Below, in pieces: positions 1,394-12,022 of a stretch of DNA of 12,022 nt. The stretch lies in NCBI GenBank assembly GCA_049512935.1, contig JBEKWR010000034.1, positions 1-12,022 of the forward strand. The letters are read 5' to 3'. The notes under the pieces are model-generated. The model saw only the letters and a list, made by a program, of their open reading frames with translations. It ran no database searches and was not told the DNA's origin. This stretch comes from Candidatus Bathyarchaeia archaeon. Its GTDB lineage: Archaea > Thermoproteota > Bathyarchaeia > Bathyarchaeales > Bathycorpusculaceae. The translations under genes and the position numbers were made by a program. Every line of letters starts with the position of its first letter. Within the stretch, counting starts at the first letter, position 1.

Positions 1394-2641
1394 TCATGTT
1401 ATGTCGAATATCTTTGCTGCAACGTTAACCATTTCCACATCGTTGCTAGCGGCGGCTCGGCGAAAGTTTTCGACAACTGGCAGAAATGTCTTCTTCAGCA
1501 GGACACTTGTTAAGTCGTTGACGATTTTTCTCTTACGCTCATCCAACTCGCCCATCATCTCAAGAGCCTTGGTAAGTTCCCTGCGGCGGTTTTCTTCGAC
1601 CTGGGACAGAAACTCAGAGATGACTTCGTTGACTGAATCGGCGTTAATGGCACACTCCAGAGTTTCAAGTTCCCTGTCGACCACCCTGAAGGCTTCCCAC
1701 ATGCTTTTTTCACGCTCCTGCCTGTCGCTCTCAGAAATCGACGTTAAGTCATCGATATCGTAGAGCTTCACACGCGGAATCTCACTGATGGTTTCCTCAA
1801 CGTTGCAGGGGTCCGAGATGTCAATCACTAAGAGATCATTTTGGTTTTGCCTCGCCGCAATAAGCCAGGAAACCAGTTGTTTCGTCAGCAGATAGTGCGG
1901 GGCGGAAGTGCAGCAGAAAACCACGTCAGCGTCTACAAGAGCCTCGCCTAACTTGTCAAACATCACGGCTTTGCCGCCGAGCTCCCCTGCCAAACGTAAC
2001 GCGCGCTCATAGGTTCTGTTAGCGATAAAAATTGGGCTTAGGCTACGTCTAGCCATTGCCTTGGCAACGAGGGTGCCAGTTTCGCCAGCGCCCATAACTA
2101 GGATCTTCTTGTCGGTGAGGCTGCTCAGCAGGTTTTCGGCGAGTTCCACAGCTGCCGAGCCCACGGAAACGGCGCCCCGGTTGATTCCAGTTTCACTCCT
2201 TACCCGTCTTCCAATGTTTACTGCACGGTTAAACAGTAGGCTTAGAACGGGGCCTGCAGCTTTCGCTTTTTCAGCTTCAAGGTAGCTGTTCCAAACTTGG
2301 TTTATAACTTGGTCTTCGCCTATGACCATGGATTCTAACCCTGAGGCAACCCGCAGCAGATGGTTGAGGGCTTCATGGTTAACGGCGTACTCGATTGCTT
2401 TGCACGCTTCCTGGGTGTGGTCTGACGCGCGGTTCTCCAGATACTCGATGGCGGATTTGACTGTTCGGTCTCCCTGTTCGCTTACAAGGAAGAGTTCAAC
2501 GCGGTTGCATGTTTGGAGAAGCACTGACTCCTGCACGCCGTCGAGCGAGCGCATTTCGGTGTAAGCGTTCGCCTTGTCTTTGAATGATACGGCTTCTAAA
2601 AGCGGCACGCGCGCCGTCTTGTGAGTGATTCTAACGTTCAC
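1394..2641 (-). CDS. hemA: Glutamyl-tRNA reductase
   Basis: THK, catalytic TCNRVE, SGLESMVIGEDQ, SVGSAAVELA, GAGETG dinucleotide-binding loop and ANRT. Start is uncertain because similarity extends upstream of GTG 2641 (see findings). Confidence 0.95.
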   Translation of the reverse strand: MNVRITHKTARVPLLEAVSFKDKANAYTEMRSLDGVQESVLLQTCNRVELFLVSEQGDRTVKSAIEYLENRASDHTQEACKAIEYAVNHEALNHLLRVASGLESMVIGEDQVINQVWNSYLEAEKAKAAGPVLSLLFNRAVNIGRRVRSETGINRGAVSVGSAAVELAENLLSSLTDKKILVMGAGETGTLVAKAMARRSLSPIFIANRTYERALRLAGELGGKAVMFDKLGEALVDADVVFCCTSAPHYLLTKQLVSWLIAARQNQNDLLVIDISDPCNVEETISEIPRVKLYDIDDLTSISESDRQEREKSMWEAFRVVDRELETLECAINADSVNEVISEFLSQVEENRRRELTKALEMMGELDERKRKIVNDLTSVLLKKTFLPVVENFRRAAASNDVEMVNVAAKIFDIT

Positions 2642-2654
2642 GATGTCGGCGGTT

Positions 2655-3656
2655 TTAGGTGACGAGTGCGGGGTTGAGGTAGCCCCCCGTGTTCGTTATC
2701 ACCTTGATGTCTTGCATGACCTGTTCAGAAGAGTTCCACGTATCCTCGACTATCTGCTGAACAGCACGCAGCGACGAAGCCATTTTTTCGCCCATGCAGG
2801 TTAAACGGTAGGCTTTCGGCTTTCTTCGGGTGAAAACGAGTTTCTTGCCCCTCAAGCACCTGAGGTATTTGTAGGTTATTCTTCGGGAAAGCTTTGTTTC
2901 TTTTGCTAGGTTTCCAGCGCTGATTCCTGCCTCGGCGATTGCATCGTAGATTTTTCGTTCTGTTGCCGTAAGGTTTTCTTTAGTTGGGTCGCGTTTTGAT
3001 TTATAGAAGAAAATGTAGTCTCTCTCTTTCGGCGTTGCAATCAGCTTTGCAGAGCATAAACGTTTGAGGACGCGTGAGACGTTTTGGCGTGGAACTATGG
3101 CTTCTATGTCTTCGAACACTTTTTCTCCTGTAAGCATGGCTTGCAAAAGGTTTTCTTCGTACCCTTCGGAGTTGGCGGGAAGTTTCTTGGCGAAGCCTTG
3201 GAAGCGCACGAGCAGTTGGGCTAGGCGGTCCCCGAACGTGGTTGCATAGTACTCGTCGCGCGTTTGAGCAGCTAACCCAATTAGCACAAGAGGGCGCAGG
3301 TATTGTTCGTTGATGTTTGTTTGGCTGTGGTTGTAGCCTGACTTTTTAAGTTCCTGCTGTAGCTTGCCTACCGAGCACCTGCCATTGGCTATGGCTTGGA
3401 GGATCTGGAGTCTTGTCTCGTTTTTTAAAACATTCAAAAGTTCTTTTGTGTAGTTGGGGTTCGCCATGGACTTCCGAAGTGACAGCAGCTCGTTTTTCAG
3501 CTTGTACGCCTTGCAGCGATCAATGCATTGCATGGGGCTGATGGGGGAGCAATTTCTGCATTCTGCAGCAAGGGACTTGAGAACTGTGGACAGGTCGCGG
3601 TTATTCTGTGTTCTTCCCGACGGCGGAATTAAGCCGAGAACAACTAAGTTGGCCAT
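2655..3656 (-). CDS. Putative transcription regulator: N-terminal CX2CX7CX3C motif plus three winged helix-turn-helix domains
   Basis: CRNCSPISPMQCIDRC at 3513-3560; ArsR-like LKNETRLQILQAI...YLRPLVLIGL...YYATTFG; VSRVLKRLCSAKLI; LTATERKIYDAI...LSRRITYKYLRCLRGKKLV. A GGAGG SD (3669-3665) lies 8 nt before ATG 3656, so that start is preferred over TTG 3671. Confidence 0.8.
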   Translation of the reverse strand: MANLVVLGLIPPSGRTQNNRDLSTVLKSLAAECRNCSPISPMQCIDRCKAYKLKNELLSLRKSMANPNYTKELLNVLKNETRLQILQAIANGRCSVGKLQQELKKSGYNHSQTNINEQYLRPLVLIGLAAQTRDEYYATTFGDRLAQLLVRFQGFAKKLPANSEGYEENLLQAMLTGEKVFEDIEAIVPRQNVSRVLKRLCSAKLIATPKERDYIFFYKSKRDPTKENLTATERKIYDAIAEAGISAGNLAKETKLSRRITYKYLRCLRGKKLVFTRRKPKAYRLTCMGEKMASSLRAVQQIVEDTWNSSEQVMQDIKVITNTGGYLNPALVT

Positions 3657-3707
3657 CCAGTTTTCCTCCAAGTAGGCATGGAACGTTTTCGTGTAAAAAG
3701 CGTTGTC

Positions 3708-3747
3708 GTCAAGAAATGTTGACTGGCGTTAGTCAAACTTTCTTGAC
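3708..3747. promoter_or_regulatory. Tandem operator pair GTCAA-N6-TTGAC (3708-3723 and 3732-3747) forming a 40-bp imperfect inverted repeat
   Basis: GTCAAGAAATGTTGAC and (TTA)GTCAAACTTTCTTGAC(TAA). Together: GTCAAGAAA-TG-TTGACT-GGCGTT-AGTCAA-AC-TTTCTTGAC. Confidence 0.8.
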
Positions 3748-3883
3748 TAAGCCTTTTCGGCGGCTTTTTACCTTTGTAACAGGCTTGCCAACTGGTGCCC
3801 GACTCATGAAGCGTGCAAAATCTGGATTAAGCTGGAACTGCTGGTTGGCGGGTGCGGTTTACGCTTGAAAACTTGGTTTACCA

Positions 3884-3899
3884 GTCAAGGTTTCTTGAC
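3884..3899. promoter_or_regulatory. Third GTCAA-N6-TTGAC operator copy
   Basis: GTCAAGGTTTCTTGAC. It shares AGTCAAnnTTTCTTGACTAAGC with copy 2 and CCAGTCAAnnTTTCTTGAC with the reverse complement of copy 1. Confidence 0.75.
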
Positions 3900-4898: not shown

Positions 4899-6191
4899 TT
4901 GGTGACGATTTTGTCGGCGGCTAACATTAGCCAAGTCTACCTCTCTTTAATCCGCACCTTCCAGTTTTATCCCCAAAGACCCACGCTTAACCCCTCGTTC
5001 GACTTTCTCGCAGACGACGCAAAATACTATAATTCAGTCATAAGCGGAAACACAACCTTGGGACAAATGGGCAAGTCTGTTCCAGGCCTTGGAAAACTGC
5101 GCTCTCCTCTTGACGGCTCATGCGCCCTTAATCAAAAGAAAAAAGTGGAAGCAGACTCGCTGTTGACCAAGTTTCAAGACTATTACACGAAGCTTTACGC
5201 TCAAAAGCTGACACTCACGGCGCATTATCCCTGCGTCATCGACATCCTCCCGTCCAAAGGCGTTAATTATCAATTGGATTCCTCGACTCTGCCAGGCTCC
5301 CTGAGCAGCGCTGAAGAAAAAGAAACCAAGATGAGCGCTTCCCTAAGAATCTACCCCGCTGGCTTAGCTTCACTTCGGCTGGGCTTGTTCCTTAGCACGC
5401 AAAGCAGCTTCAAGACGGAAGACATCATCGAGTTCCTCAAGGGAAAAAACGCGGTCGTCAAGATTAAAGCGGAGCAATTCACCATTGAAGACTTGACAGC
5501 TGAATACAGACGCCGACTGCTTGCCGGGTTAAACACTGAGCTTAACTCTTTCAACTGGGAAGACACCTTTTCTTTCGTTGACATAATCAAGGCGGCGCCG
5601 TTAACCCTTGCACAAAACCAAAACGACGTGTTTTTGCCGCTCCTCTGCCTCAAATCAGCACCGAGGGCGAACGAGTGCAGCATCGATAACCTCTCCGAAG
5701 ACCCCGACATCCTTTTGCCCGGATCAAGATGCTTCGTTTCTTACCTTCCCTCAGGAGAGAAGCCAGACCGACGCAAAGTCCGAGGTTGGCTTCGAAACAG
5801 CCTTGAACTCTACTACATGCAGAAGTTTCTAATCCAACGCATCGCTGCACTGACGGACAGCGCGAATTATTCCAGCCTGCTGGAGGAAGTTAACTGGATG
5901 ATAAAGGTTAAGAAGTGGATTTTGCCGCCTAAAATCGCGTCTTTACTGTCTGCTATGAACTACACAAGCCTTCACACAAGAATCTACCCACTGCAAAAAG
6001 ACGTGTGGAGAACCAGATACAACAAAACCCTGCTGGTCTTGGACAAAGGGAACGACATCACGACCGCTAATGCGCAGGCAAAGACGCAGGTCGACGCGAT
6101 TGTGAAGTTAACAAATGACAACAACCATGAAGTCGGCTCGTGGTTTCAGAAGCTCGTTGACATAGCCGCCAAGTTTGTGGGCAAATCCTAG
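4899..6191 (+). CDS. Hypothetical protein (430 aa), no family recognised
   Basis: Long ORF with normal protein composition. TTTTTAT at 4868-4874 lies about 25-31 nt before TTG 4899/GTG 4902, which suggests a leaderless transcript. Confidence 0.8.
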   Translation: MVTILSAANISQVYLSLIRTFQFYPQRPTLNPSFDFLADDAKYYNSVISGNTTLGQMGKSVPGLGKLRSPLDGSCALNQKKKVEADSLLTKFQDYYTKLYAQKLTLTAHYPCVIDILPSKGVNYQLDSSTLPGSLSSAEEKETKMSASLRIYPAGLASLRLGLFLSTQSSFKTEDIIEFLKGKNAVVKIKAEQFTIEDLTAEYRRRLLAGLNTELNSFNWEDTFSFVDIIKAAPLTLAQNQNDVFLPLLCLKSAPRANECSIDNLSEDPDILLPGSRCFVSYLPSGEKPDRRKVRGWLRNSLELYYMQKFLIQRIAALTDSANYSSLLEEVNWMIKVKKWILPPKIASLLSAMNYTSLHTRIYPLQKDVWRTRYNKTLLVLDKGNDITTANAQAKTQVDAIVKLTNDNNHEVGSWFQKLVDIAAKFVGKS

Positions 6192-10660: not shown

Positions 10661-12010
10661 CTATCCTGCTGTGCCGTAGCCGCTGACGGTGACCACCGCG
10701 TTTGTTGCGGCGGCGCTTGACTGCGCATCGAACACCACGCCCAAAATCAAGTTCTGCGAGGGAAACAGCGTCAGAATCTGGTCATTGCTTAGCCACACTG
10801 CCCCGCTTGCCGTGAAGGCTTGAGTGACTGGGTTAGAGACGACGTTGTCGGCTAGGAGCAGGCGCACGCGGACAGTGACGGTTTCGTTGTTGCTGAAGCT
10901 TCCGTTAACCTGGATTTTGGGTTCAAACGTGAAGATGTCAAGCGGAAGAGCCTGAATAGTCGCGTTGCCAGCGTACTGCCCGCTGACGCCGACTGGGACG
11001 CCCACGTTTTGCCGCTCGAAGGCGCTACCGACCCCGCTGATCCAGATGCTGTATGGGTTGTGTATGCTGGCTGTCCAGTTGCCCAAGAAGTTGACGTCGC
11101 CGTCCAGCATCGGAGCTGGGTTGCAGTTTTGCCCAAGGTCGATGGCGTACATGTTGTTCGGCACGTCTGTGAAGGATTCAAACACCACGCCCGACAGAAG
11201 TGTCTGGTACATTGAGCCGTCCACGAGGAGCCCAGTTTGGTTGGTCACGCCGTCCTGTCCCATCCACATCCTGACGTCCTGCATTTGGCTGTCTGAGAAC
11301 TGTGCGTTGGCTTCAACGTTGATGCCGACGGAGTTGTCGCGGATGTTGAAGAAGCATCGGGTGATTTGTGAGCTGGCGTAGGAGCCTGTCGCGTTGCCCG
11401 TTGGCGTCTGGAAGACTATGCCTTCTGTGGCGTTGATGAAGTAGCAGTTGTCGATCTGCGTGTCCTCGCTCCAAGACCTTGTGTTGGCTAACCAGATTCC
11501 CACTGTGGTGTTCTCAAAAATCATGTTGGCTATGGTTGTTCCAAACGAGTTCTCAACGAGAACTGTCCCGCCGATGACGGTTAAGCCTGAAATGGTTGAG
11601 TATTCTGAGCTTGTGAAGTTGGCGCCGTAAACGATTATGTCGTGTCCGTTTCCGATTATGGTTGCGCCGTCGCCGACGATTTTTGCGTTAACCTTGTTGG
11701 AAACAGAAACGTTCTGGGTCAAAACGTAGTTTCCAGGGTTAAGGTAAACGGAGTTTCCATGAGCCAACGCGGAGTTGATCGCTGATGACGCGCTTGACGC
11801 GGTGGCTGTCGAACCCGTCAGCATGTTCTTCAGCTGGTAACTGTTGCCGTTCTGTGAAACCACGAAGTCGTAGCTTACTGCGCCTGAATTGGCTTGCCCG
11901 CTGGGGCGCGTAAGAATCATGTAAGTGTTGAACGCTGACAGGGCAAGCACAGCTACGAGGAGAACGGCGAGGAAGCGTTTGGAAATCGTGAATTTCGGTT
12001 TAGCTTGCAT
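10661..12010 (-). CDS. Membrane-anchored/secreted parallel beta-helix (pectin-lyase-like) protein
   Basis: Basic N-terminus plus a hydrophobic segment (KRFLAVLLVAVLALSAF). AINSAL...SVYLNPGNY is typical of a beta-helix cap, followed by I/N/G-rich rungs and 10 N-x-S/T sequons. An in-frame TGA at 12022-12020 shows the gene is complete; start is ATG 12010 or TTG 12016. Confidence 0.8.
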   Translation of the reverse strand: MQAKPKFTISKRFLAVLLVAVLALSAFNTYMILTRPSGQANSGAVSYDFVVSQNGNSYQLKNMLTGSTATASSASSAINSALAHGNSVYLNPGNYVLTQNVSVSNKVNAKIVGDGATIIGNGHDIIVYGANFTSSEYSTISGLTVIGGTVLVENSFGTTIANMIFENTTVGIWLANTRSWSEDTQIDNCYFINATEGIVFQTPTGNATGSYASSQITRCFFNIRDNSVGINVEANAQFSDSQMQDVRMWMGQDGVTNQTGLLVDGSMYQTLLSGVVFESFTDVPNNMYAIDLGQNCNPAPMLDGDVNFLGNWTASIHNPYSIWISGVGSAFERQNVGVPVGVSGQYAGNATIQALPLDIFTFEPKIQVNGSFSNNETVTVRVRLLLADNVVSNPVTQAFTASGAVWLSNDQILTLFPSQNLILGVVFDAQSSAAATNAVVTVSGYGTAG

Positions 12011-12022
12011 ATTCAAGGCTCA

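What the first reader, a model, noticed from the sequence alone, without database searches (positions are those of the whole stretch)
2655..3656. Cys4-motif, triple winged-helix protein coupled to hemA: candidate new Fe-S/metal-sensing regulator of tetrapyrrole entry
Seen: a CX2CX7CX3C motif precedes an ArsR-like wHTH and two more wHTHs. The third appears inserted in the wing of the second, because the wing-closing KAYRLTCMG comes only after it. The gene ends 13 nt before hemA, and no other hem gene is in the unit. Established: HemA catalyses the committed step of C5 tetrapyrrole synthesis. The protein does not resemble the Lrp-like AhbA/B often found near archaeal hemA. Inference: a one-component sensor linking Fe-S/Zn/redox status to 5-aminolevulinate supply. 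I do not recognise this architecture as a described family.
Basis: partly seen in the sequence, partly recalled or inferred. Interest (0 to 1): 0.75.

Follow-up and report, generated by a model that had tools for sequence, protein, structure and literature searches.

The report
Cys4 triple winged-helix regulator beside hemA
This gene encodes an undescribed Bathyarchaeia-only DNA-binding protein with four invariant cysteines and three winged-helix domains, and only a minor branch of the family is coupled to a spare, apparently orphan copy of the first tetrapyrrole enzyme.

Summary
The gene (2655-3656, minus strand, 333 aa) is real. It has an N-terminal CX2CX7CX3C motif and three winged helices, and it ends 13 nt before a true glutamyl-tRNA reductase gene. 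The four cysteines are invariant in relatives down to 23% identity. The AlphaFold2 model (pLDDT 90) shows three tandem winged helices, not one nested in another.

The family is patchy and was seen only in Bathyarchaeia (57 of 301 genomes sampled). No characterised family or solved structure matches the whole architecture.

The hemA link holds for only a minor clade. Seven cassettes pair this regulator type with a divergent hemA paralogue ("hemA2"), in unrelated surroundings and often with overlapping reading frames. The other findings argue against a general hemA link:
- 78 of 80 other loci have no hemA nearby.
- The closest syntenic orthologues lack hemA.
- Canonical hemA genes sit in cobamide clusters with no such regulator beside them.
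- The window's genome has no detectable hemB, hemC or hemL.

So "gatekeeper of tetrapyrrole entry" is weakly supported here.

My best reading is a metal- or Fe-S-cluster-bearing transcription factor, co-transcribed with hemA2 from a promoter that carries a genus-wide palindrome. Cofactor, signal and DNA target remain untested.

The parts
2655..3656 (-). Regulator gene ('REG', 333 aa incl. stop 2655-2657); minor paralogue clade of a Bathyarchaeia family
   Evidence: ORF and translation. 1418 homologues with E <= 0.001. Tree placement.
3465..3593 (-). N-terminal helical Cys4 module (residues 22-64). The four Cys (C33, C36, C44, C48) are encoded at 3513-3560.
   Evidence: Motif read from the sequence. 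Invariant in A1 and A2. Helices 22-34, 41-47 and 49-64 in the model. No look-alike outside the family.
3243..3452 (-). Winged helix 1 (residues 69-138), ArsR/SmtB-like
   Evidence: HTH_5 27.6 bits and NF033788 49.1 bits, the latter below its cut-off of 55. Foldseek best hits are HlyU, SqrR and CzrA, single-domain only.
3000..3161 (-). Winged helix 2 (residues 166-219), with its own wing
   Evidence: Secondary structure of the model. Weak MarR_2/HTH_Crp_2 hits at 188-210.
2802..2966 (-). Winged helix 3 (residues 231-285), HTH_45/TrmB-like
   Evidence: HTH_45 38 bits and TrmB 28.5 bits. Model.
2691..2798 (-). Long C-terminal helix (residues 287-322); possible dimerisation element (inferred)
   Evidence: Model helix 287-322. 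W307 is invariant in the close set.
1394..2641 (-). hemA2: divergent paralogue of glutamyl-tRNA reductase, 13 nt downstream of REG
   Evidence: TIGR01035 359.8 bits. Forms one clade with the five other REG-linked HemAs, support 96/94. 55-62% identical to the canonical HemAs of its genus.
3708..3723 (.). Palindrome GTCAA-N6-TTGAC, promoter-proximal box 1
3729..3750 (.). Extended perfect palindrome TTAGTCAA-N6-TTGACTAA, box 2 (core 3732-3747)
   Evidence: Conserved upstream of 12 of 12 related non-main loci.
3884..3899 (.). Third GTCAA-N6-TTGAC box further upstream
3692..3700 (-). TATA-like CTTTTTACA just downstream of box 1 (assignment inferred)
   Evidence: Sequence. The same element is aligned in L001, L003, L004 and L068.

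Best explanation
The gene encodes a member of a family seen only in Bathyarchaeia. Its layout is a short helical module with four invariant cysteines (CX2CX7CX3C), then three tandem winged-helix domains, then a long C-terminal helix.

I read it as a DNA-binding transcription factor whose Cys4 module holds a metal centre. A [4Fe-4S] cluster seems somewhat more likely than structural Zn. Through that centre the protein would respond to redox, oxygen or Fe-S status.

The window's copy belongs to a minor paralogue clade. In that clade the regulator gene was joined, probably once, to a duplicated glutamyl-tRNA reductase gene (hemA2). The pair forms a two-gene operon with adjacent or overlapping frames. 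It is driven by a promoter with twin GTCAA-N6-TTGAC palindromes placed against a TATA-like box.

That palindrome is a genus-wide promoter element. It also occurs in genomes that lack this paralogue, so another factor probably binds it, and the regulator's own operator is unknown.

Shown: the architecture, the cysteine conservation, the cassette, the promoter boxes and the paralogy of hemA2.
Inferred: DNA binding, cofactor, signal, co-transcription, and any control of hemA2 by the regulator.
For: - Three winged helices with high model confidence: pLDDT 90.3, pTM 0.81.
- WH1 and WH3 pass Pfam cut-offs for HTH_5, HTH_45 and TrmB.
- The structural neighbours of WH1 are ArsR/SmtB sensors: HlyU, SqrR, CzrA.
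- The four Cys are invariant in 22 of 22 and 29 of 29 aligned sequences, down to 23% identity. The only other invariant columns among the 29 are M1, G142, L200 and G289. The exact spacing is in 100 of 101 ORFs.
- The family is accessory and has paralogues, which fits a specific regulator. It was found in 57 of 301 class genomes, with 1-3 copies per genome and 2 in the window's genome.
- Each paralogue clade has its own twin palindrome upstream. GTCAA-N6-TTGAC is in 12 of 12 non-main loci plus the window and in 0 of 68 main loci. ATGAC-N4-GTCAT is in 50 of 68 main loci and 0 of 12 others.
- The cassette: all 4 class-sample HemAs that are at least 71% identical to the window's have the regulator directly upstream on the same strand, as do L059 and L068. 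Only these two genes are shared among 6 cassette loci. Frames overlap by 4-41 nt in five of them.
- The linked HemAs form one clade, 96/94. All linked regulators fall in one 16-row clade, SH-aLRT 97.
- Relatives in two other Bathyarchaeia families lack the N-terminal motif. They carry instead a C-terminal winged helix plus a CX2CX7CX9C module. A profile of that module finds the genome's own TFE-beta homologue at E 2e-35. The only PDB match of that homologue is the 4Fe-4S domain of human RPC6. This is a weak analogy in favour of an Fe-S module.
- RNA-library contigs cover 2989-3660 at 99-100% identity in 4 of 4 runs of one study.
Against: - No DNA binding, cofactor or signal has been tested.
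- The conserved promoter palindrome is not specific to this regulator. It occurs 35 times in the genome at 25 loci. It ranges from 0 to 49 per genome in the genus. It is abundant in G112 (26 sites) and G402 (49 sites), which have only a main-type paralogue. The target of the protein therefore remains unknown.
- The N-terminal Cys module shows no profile similarity to the TFE-beta Fe-S domain (hhalign probability 0.4%) and has no look-alike outside the family. Fe-S versus Zn is open.
- In ferredoxins the CX2CX7CX3C spacing occurs only as half of a two-cluster motif (one table passage, PMC8928951). Spacing alone is not diagnostic.
- No RNA contig bridges the REG-hemA junction. hemA is covered in only 1 of 4 runs.
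- The hemA link is absent in most of the family. One cassette (G423, L102) is frameshifted in both genes, which suggests it is dispensable.
Confidence: 0.55

Rival explanations
1. One reading: a one-component Fe-S/Zn/redox sensor that directly gates entry into tetrapyrrole synthesis by regulating hemA (5-aminolevulinate supply).
For: - A conserved, mobile REG-hemA2 cassette in 7 genomes, with adjacent or overlapping frames.
- Invariant Cys4.
- hemA2 keeps all 95 columns that are invariant across 18 HemAs and shows no fixed difference from canonical copies.
- Five of the cassette genomes also carry a canonical hemA, and one of these was shown to have hemB. In those genomes hemA2 could be a separately regulated isoenzyme.
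Against: - 78 of 80 loci are unlinked to hemA.
- The nearest syntenic orthologues are unlinked, and their genomes lack hemA and hemB.
- Canonical hemA in cobamide clusters never has this regulator within 1.5 kb: 0 of 36.
- The window's genome lacks hemB, hemC, hemL and 16 of 18 ORFs of the canonical block. There is no detectable pathway to gate.
- The operon's visible operator belongs to a wider regulon that does not depend on this paralogue.
Confidence: 0.2
2. The protein is not a gene-specific sensor. It is an accessory of the basal transcription machinery or chromatin, with a structural Cys4 metal module (Zn or Fe-S), related in function to TFE-beta/RPC39-type multi-winged-helix factors.
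For: - Unusually high conservation: 62-71% identity across many species and 72% mean column identity.
- Weak sub-threshold hits to RNA_pol_Rpc34 and TFIIE_alpha.
- Weak Foldseek rows to Pol III C82/RPC62 and SelB multi-WH arrays.
- Relatives are fused to a TFE-beta-like WH plus Cys4 module.
- In TFE-beta the cluster is structural and needed for dimerisation (passages of PMC4495717).
Against: - Patchy distribution, 57 of 301 genomes, with lineage-specific paralogues.
- The genome has its own separate TFE-beta.
- hhalign finds no relation between the two Cys modules.
- The Rpc34 hit is under its cut-off, 21.6 against 28.4 bits.
- The Foldseek multi-WH rows have E values of 0.08 or worse and TM below 0.2.
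Confidence: 0.12
3. In the cassette clade the protein acts post-translationally, as a binding partner that controls the activity or stability of GluTR (hemA2).
For: Tight gene pairing with overlapping frames in five cassettes. Such pairing often marks protein partners (general knowledge).
Against: - Most family members have no hemA nearby.
- The protein is built of DNA-binding folds.
- Nothing specific to the cassette clade was identified in the protein.
Confidence: 0.05

Closest known systems
ArsR/SmtB metal and persulfide sensors (HlyU, SqrR, CzrA, SmtB)
   Same: WH1 matches the family HTH profile (HTH_5 27.6 bits). Its best structural neighbours are these proteins (TM by target 0.70-0.77). 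They also couple Cys or metal chemistry to DNA binding.
   Different: - Those are single-domain homodimers of about 100-120 aa. This protein has 333 aa and three winged helices.
- The NCBIfam family model is under its cut-off, 49.1 against 55 bits.
- The cysteines sit in a separate N-terminal helical module, not in the winged helix.
- No Cys lies in the helix-turn-helix of WH1.
TFE-beta / human RPC39 (RPC6): winged helix plus cubane [4Fe-4S] domain
   Same: - Winged helices are combined with a compact Cys4 module.
- Distant relatives of this family carry a genuine TFE-beta-like WH plus Cys4 module at their C-terminus.
- RPC39 has three winged helices plus the cluster domain (passage of PMC4495717).
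   Different: - The Cys module here is N-terminal, with spacing x2/x7/x3. The spacing is x2/x5/x10 in Sulfolobus TFE-beta (C92, C95, C101, C112) and in this genome's own TFE-beta.
- hhalign probability is 0.4%.
- PF05158 is under its cut-off.
- The family is not universal.
SurR and other archaeal thiol or redox-switch winged-helix regulators (recalled; OxsR/TrmB type seen only in a search listing)
   Same: Archaeal multi- or single-winged-helix regulators in which cysteines convert redox state into DNA-binding changes. The neighbours of both paralogue clades include oxidative-damage genes (msrA; peroxiredoxin, flavodoxin).
   Different: - No sequence or fold match to any of them was returned.
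- SurR has two winged helices and a CxxC inside the first (recalled). Here there are four Cys in a separate module and three winged helices.

Membership tests
ArsR/SmtB family | Winged-helix domain matching the family profiles | tested here: inconclusive
   Pfam HTH_5 scores 27.6 bits (cut-off 22), but only profile positions 1-28 of 47 are matched. NCBIfam NF033788 scores 49.1 bits, under its cut-off of 55.
ArsR/SmtB family | Single-domain protein of about 100-120 aa forming a homodimer through its terminal helices | tested here: not met
   The protein has 333 aa, three tandem winged helices and extra N- and C-terminal elements. The oligomeric state was not tested.
ArsR/SmtB family | Sensory site inside the winged-helix core (alpha3/alpha5 metal sites or Cys pairs; definitions recalled) | tested here: not met
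   WH1 (residues 69-138) contains one Cys, C94, which is Y in most relatives. The invariant Cys all lie at 33-48, outside the domain.
TFE-beta / RPC39 | C-terminal Cys4 [4Fe-4S] domain homologous to that of RPC39 | tested here: not met
   The Cys module is N-terminal. hhalign against the TFE-beta Fe-S profile gives probability 0.4%, E 0.15. The template profile was shallow (Neff 1.6), so the test had low power.
TFE-beta / RPC39 | Match to the family profile and role as the genome's basal factor | tested here: not met
   PF05158 scores 21.6 bits against a cut-off of 28.4. A separate TFE-beta homologue lies at G000:C1:145493-145948. The family is absent from most Bathyarchaeia sampled.
Iron-sulfur cluster transcription factors (functional class) | Bound Fe-S cluster whose state changes DNA binding | not testable with these tools
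   Only four invariant Cys within 16 residues are shown. Spectroscopy and metal analysis are needed.
Glutamyl-tRNA reductase (the neighbouring gene) | Full-length match over the curated cut-off, and conserved active-site region | tested here: met
   TIGR01035 scores 359.8 bits against a cut-off of 209.55, and all three Pfam domains are present. T44-C45-N46-R47-E49 and G184-A185-G186 are invariant among 18 HemAs including this one. The role of the Cys as nucleophile is recalled.
Glutamyl-tRNA reductase (the neighbouring gene) | Pathway context: hemL, hemB and hemC in the same genome | tested here: not met
   Own genome (93% complete): PF00490 and TIGR00212 give no match, and TIGR00713 gives 177.5 bits against a cut-off of 527. 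16 of the 18 ORFs of the canonical hem/cobamide block of a same-genus genome have no tblastn hit at 1e-10.

The most novel reading that the evidence does not exclude
The family is a new class of archaeal Fe-S-cluster transcription factors: a compact helical [4Fe-4S] module fused to a triple winged-helix array. Its sister forms swapped that module for a TFE-beta-type cluster domain, which would tie gene-specific regulation to the basal factor TFE. In the cassette clade it controls a stand-alone glutamyl-tRNA reductase that works outside tetrapyrrole synthesis. That enzyme might supply glutamate-1-semialdehyde or 5-aminolevulinate for another use, or for exchange, in a cobamide-auxotrophic archaeon.
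Probability: 0.1. Interest if true: 0.8.

Novelty: new variant of a known kind. Interest (0 to 1): 0.5.

Why it matters
Almost nothing is known about gene regulation in Bathyarchaeia, which are abundant, uncultured archaea of peat, soil and sediment.

- This family has a strictly conserved four-cysteine module on a triple winged-helix scaffold. It is a concrete, easily expressed candidate for a redox or metal sensor in these anaerobes.
- Its fused relatives point to a possible link with the Fe-S-containing basal factor TFE-beta.
- The orphan hemA2 sits in a genome that has many B12-dependent radical SAM genes but no detectable cobamide pathway. That raises a testable question about what a lone glutamyl-tRNA reductase does.
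- For the scan, the lesson is that adjacency to hemA was a property of a minor paralogue clade, not of the family.

Tried and rejected
1. Nested-domain reading (WH3 inserted in the wing of WH2). Rejected from the model's secondary structure.

2. Homology of the N-terminal Cys module to the TFE-beta/RPC39 Fe-S domain. hhalign gave probability 0.4% local and 0.1% global. I do not claim homology.

3. The GTCAA-N6-TTGAC palindrome as this regulator's own autoregulatory operator. It looked attractive because it lies upstream of 12 of 12 non-main loci plus the window, and of 0 of 68 main loci. I rejected it as specific evidence because the box is abundant in genomes that have only the main-type paralogue.

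4. Direct binding of the regulator to HemA2. Complex prediction returned 'no answer' (score 0.00). This counts neither for nor against binding.

5. Whole-architecture match in the PDB.
- Foldseek gave no row with E <= 0.001.
- The two VIA-align libraries were not on the machine.

6. Longer fused forms of the protein (584-2000 aa). None was found at E <= 1e-10. The tool itself notes this is weak evidence.

7. Co-transcription from public RNA libraries.
- The contigs cover part of the regulator gene and, in one run, part of hemA. None bridges the junction.
- Uncovered parts prove nothing. DNA carry-over in the libraries cannot be excluded.
- Contig ends with adapter letters at 2989 and 3658-3660 are not taken as transcript ends.

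8. Signs of neofunctionalisation in HemA2. There are no fixed differences from canonical copies among 18 sequences.

10. Literature.
- 'CX2CX7CX3C' anywhere in text found 2 papers, both on ferredoxin subtype tables. I read one table passage.
- Bathyarchaeota plus glutamyl-tRNA reductase found 3 papers (listing only).
- archaea + ArsR + iron-sulfur cluster + transcriptional regulator + winged helix found 14 papers, 12 listed (listing only).
- The hemA/orphan search was read as a listing only.
- No title or abstract in these listings describes this family.
- Supplementary files were not consulted. They were closed and might hold family tables that I could not see.
Full report
**What is there**

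The minus strand of 2655-3656 encodes a 333-aa protein. A TTG five codons upstream gives the mechanical 338-aa ORF. Homologues start at the Met of the ATG, and a GGAGG lies 9-13 nt upstream of it.

The protein carries C33-x2-C36-x7-C44-x3-C48. Pfam finds an ArsR-type HTH at 79-106 and HTH_45/TrmB at 228-302, both over their cut-offs. The NCBIfam ArsR/SmtB model stays under its cut-off, 49.1 against 55 bits.

The gene 13 nt downstream (1394-2641, minus) is a full glutamyl-tRNA reductase: TIGR01035 at 359.8 bits against 209.55, with all three Pfam domains.

The rest of the window holds a GT2 glycosyltransferase, msrA, a zinc-ribbon protein, KH/RIO/eIF-1A genes, an HD protein, a fumarase and two ORFs with no Pfam family. 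It contains no other hem gene.

**Fold**

I built an AlphaFold2 model from a 59-row alignment. It has mean pLDDT 90.3 and pTM 0.81. Its elements are:
- a disordered residues 1-17;
- a helical Cys module (helices 22-34, 41-47, 49-64);
- three consecutive winged helices at about 69-138, 166-219 and 231-285;
- a long helix at 287-322.

WH2 closes its own wing (strands 206-207 and 215-219) before WH3 begins.

**The family**

The 90%-clustered database holds 1418 relatives with E <= 0.001. The best 120 are 62-93% identical. Where named, they are from Bathyarchaeia, apart from two MAGs labelled bacterial.

An exhaustive HMMER scan of 50% representatives found 138 clusters, 44 of them at E <= 1e-30.

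Cysteine conservation:
- The four cysteines are invariant in 22 of 22 close sequences.
- They are invariant in 29 of 29 full-length representatives down to 23% identity. There the only other invariant columns are M1, G142, L200 and G289.
- The exact spacing is in 100 of 101 ORFs extracted from loci. The exception is an ORF called from an internal Met.

Within the class the family is patchy: 57 of 301 genomes, and 42 of 152 high-quality ones, with 1-3 copies per genome. The window's genome has two full copies. One is the window's. The other is a 'main-type' copy on contig C1.

**Is it coupled to hemA?**

Mostly not.
- Of 80 species-representative loci with 6-kb flanks, 2 have hemA.
- The seven closest relatives (65-71% identity, L001-L007) lie in the same neighbourhood as the window. 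Shared genes include GT2, msrA, KH, RIO, eIF-1A, HD, fumarase and others. In those loci the regulator is followed directly by a convergent msrA with no hemA.
- Three of their genomes have neither hemA nor hemB.
- In the order, hemA (33 of 151 genomes) and hemB (32 of 151) co-occur a few kb apart.
- In a same-genus genome that block holds hemD, a uroporphyrinogen methylase-type gene, hemC, a class-III aminotransferase (hemL position), hemB, a siroheme-synthase-like dehydrogenase, a cobQ-like gene, hemA, cbiX-cbiC, cbiD and another methylase. It is a cobamide cluster.
- None of 12 plus 24 such canonical hemA loci has the regulator within 1.5 kb.

**A real sub-clade cassette**

There is nevertheless a genuine pairing in a minor clade.
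- In a 401-genome class sample, all 4 HemAs that are at least 71% identical to the window's have a paralogue of the regulator directly upstream on the same strand. The 24 that are at most 62% identical have none.
- With L059, L068 and the window, that makes seven cassettes.
- One of them (G423) has frameshifts in both genes.
- Among six cassette loci with 12-16 kb of context, only these two genes are shared.
- In five of the six the frames overlap by 4-41 nt. The window has a 13-nt gap to the first GTG, and the hemA frame is open further upstream.
- The six linked HemAs form one clade (96/94), nested among canonical HemAs of the same archaeal family.
- They show no fixed differences from canonical copies.
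- In the regulator tree the window's protein sits with the msrA-syntenic set (SH-aLRT 100). All hemA-linked copies fall with them in a 16-row clade (SH-aLRT 97), apart from the 69-row main group.
- One origin of the cassette, followed by loss of hemA2 in the msrA-syntenic lineage, is the simplest reading. A gain in the window's lineage is not excluded.

**An orphan hemA**

The window's genome is 93% complete in 49 contigs.
- It has this hemA only.
- It has no PF00490 (hemB) match and no TIGR00212 (hemC) match.
- For hemL it has only a 177.5-bit class-III aminotransferase, against a cut-off of 527.
- Of the 18 ORFs of the same-genus hem/cobamide block, 16 have no tblastn hit at 1e-10. One hits only at 29.5% identity. 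One is the hemA itself, at 59%.
- Nine of 39 other same-genus genomes also lack hemA at the threshold used.
- The genome still has at least eight B12-binding radical SAM paralogues.

The organism therefore looks like a cobamide auxotroph that keeps a lone GluTR. Absence in a MAG is not proof. A second cassette genome without hemB (G382) is only 1.0 Mb, so it carries little weight.

**Promoter**

Upstream of the regulator lie three elements:
- a perfect palindrome TTAGTCAA-N6-TTGACTAA at 3729-3750;
- a second GTCAA-N6-TTGAC at 3708-3723, abutting a TATA-like CTTTTTACA at 3692-3700;
- a third box at 3884-3899.

The twin boxes are conserved upstream of 12 of 12 non-main family loci and 0 of 68 main-type loci. 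Main-type loci instead have ATGAC-N4-GTCAT, usually twice (50 of 68 with at least one). It lies between the regulator and a divergent Xre-like HTH gene.

The GTCAA box is not private to this gene.
- The genome has 35 copies, against 2-10 for other spacings.
- 23 of 25 loci are intergenic, mostly 50-65 nt before an ORF start.
- The downstream genes include five PQQ-like beta-propeller proteins, three NosD/beta-helix proteins, a RuBisCO large subunit, PCMT, a polyferredoxin-like protein and many proteins with no family.
- Counts range from 0 to 49 per genome in the genus.
- Counts are high in G112 and G402, which have only a main-type paralogue.

I therefore take the box as the site of another, unidentified factor. 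The regulator-hemA2 operon would be one member of that regulon. The regulator's own operator is unknown.

**The Cys module**

It has no look-alike outside the family.

Some distant relatives, found in two other Bathyarchaeia families, lack it. They carry instead a fourth winged helix plus CX2CX7CX9C at the C-terminus.
- A profile of that part finds, at E 2e-35, a 152-aa protein of the window's own genome with CX2CX5CX10C. This is the spacing of Sulfolobus TFE-beta C92/C95/C101/C112 (passages of PMC4495717).
- The only PDB match of that protein's family profile is the C-terminal cluster domain of human RPC6 (E 0.0043).
- These relatives are therefore fusions with a TFE-beta paralogue. They coexist with a stand-alone TFE-beta in 4 of 5 genomes.
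- Other relatives, labelled Baldrarchaeia and Thermoprotei, have no Cys module at all.

By analogy the N-terminal module may also hold a cluster. However, hhalign finds no similarity between the two modules. Fe-S versus Zn stays open.

**Context hints**

The main-type paralogue sits in a conserved neighbourhood, also present in the window's genome. Counts are out of 68 main loci:
- Xre-like HTH, 66;
- an unknown 161-aa protein, 65;
- flavodoxin, 62;
- a B12 radical SAM enzyme, 58;
- peroxiredoxin, 40;
- endonuclease III, 41.

The window's clade sits next to msrA. This gives a faint oxidative-damage flavour. The loci come from closely related genomes and the genes are mostly convergent, so I give it little weight.

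**Expression**

In four metatranscriptome runs of one study, contigs 99-100% identical to the window cover 2989-3660 of the regulator gene. One run covers 2027-2278 of hemA. None bridges the junction. This is compatible with expression, but DNA carry-over cannot be excluded.

**Verdict**

The exception is the nested domain.

It overreaches on hemA. The coupling is a feature of a minor paralogue clade, it involves a spare hemA copy, and in this genome there is no visible tetrapyrrole pathway.

I rate it a new variant of a known kind: cysteine- or metal-bearing winged-helix regulators. Interest is moderate.

Noticed in passing
window 3708-3723, 3732-3747, 3884-3899; genome G000, 25 loci: GTCAA-N6-TTGAC (often GTCAAG-N4-CTTGAC) occurs 35 times in the 2.3-Mb genome, against 2-10 for other spacings. 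The sites usually come in pairs 23-35 nt apart and lie 50-65 nt before ORF starts. The downstream genes include PQQ-like beta-propellers, NosD/beta-helix proteins, RuBisCO large subunit, PCMT and many unknowns. Counts range from 0 to 49 per genome in the genus. The binding factor is unidentified.
   Followed up: partly
window 1394-2641 and whole genome G000: This is an orphan glutamyl-tRNA reductase. The 93%-complete genome shows no hemB or hemC, hemL is far under its cut-off, and 16 of 18 ORFs of the same-genus hem/cobamide block are missing. It still has at least eight B12-binding radical SAM paralogues (one on C1, seven hits on C13).
   Followed up: partly
P0174, P0185, P0198, P0181; loci L183-L187 (genomes G189, G294, G304, G234, G258): Relatives of the triple winged-helix core are fused to a TFE-beta-like winged helix plus Cys4 module (395-466 aa). 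They coexist with a stand-alone TFE-beta in 4 of 5 genomes. This is a multi-winged-helix plus Fe-S layout reminiscent of eukaryotic RPC39.
   Followed up: partly
G000:C1:145493-145948 (L177): The genome's TFE-beta homologue is 152 aa with CX2CX5CX10C and is highly conserved in Bathyarchaeia (76% mean column identity in 22 sequences). Sources name it only 'hypothetical', 'transcriptional regulator' or 'B-block binding subunit of TFIIIC'.
   Followed up: partly
G000:C1:174934-174966 (L178) and 50 of 68 main-type loci: Twin ATGAC-N4-GTCAT palindromes lie between the main-type paralogue and a divergent Xre-like HTH gene, just downstream of a TTTAAATA box. There are only 7 such sites in the whole genome. 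This is a likely operator of one of the two proteins.
   Followed up: partly
G017:C1:1483195-1484436 and G026:C32:14931-16169 (L090, L088): The hemA matches lie in open frames of 870 and 877 aa. This suggests a fusion of glutamyl-tRNA reductase with another domain in one Bathyarchaeia genus.
   Followed up: no
L102 (G423:C14:1614648-1618640): One regulator-hemA2 cassette appears degraded. Both the regulator and hemA align in two pieces in different frames. The same genome keeps a canonical hemA elsewhere.
   Followed up: no
matches in G189, G294, G234, G258, G005, G218: Several matches in other Bathyarchaeia families carry one in-frame TAG. These may simply be matches running past the gene's stop. 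I did not check whether TAG is read through in those lineages.
   Followed up: no
window 2989-3660: RNA-library contigs from four runs of one study stop at nearly the same places (2989/2991 and 3658-3660). Two of them have adapter letters beyond the end. The 3' third of the gene and the intergenic regions are uncovered.
   Followed up: no
window 4899-6191 (+) and 10661-12016 (-): Two long ORFs (430 and 451 aa) have no Pfam family at E <= 0.001. The second is conserved (72-88% identity) next to the fumarase gene in related genomes.
   Followed up: no
residues 162-165 of the protein (window about 3162-3173): Most family members have H-S-x-C-Y-E-E at the start of WH2. The window's protein and a few others have N-S-E-G-Y-E-E. 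A fifth, semi-conserved Cys and a His are therefore missing here.
   Followed up: no
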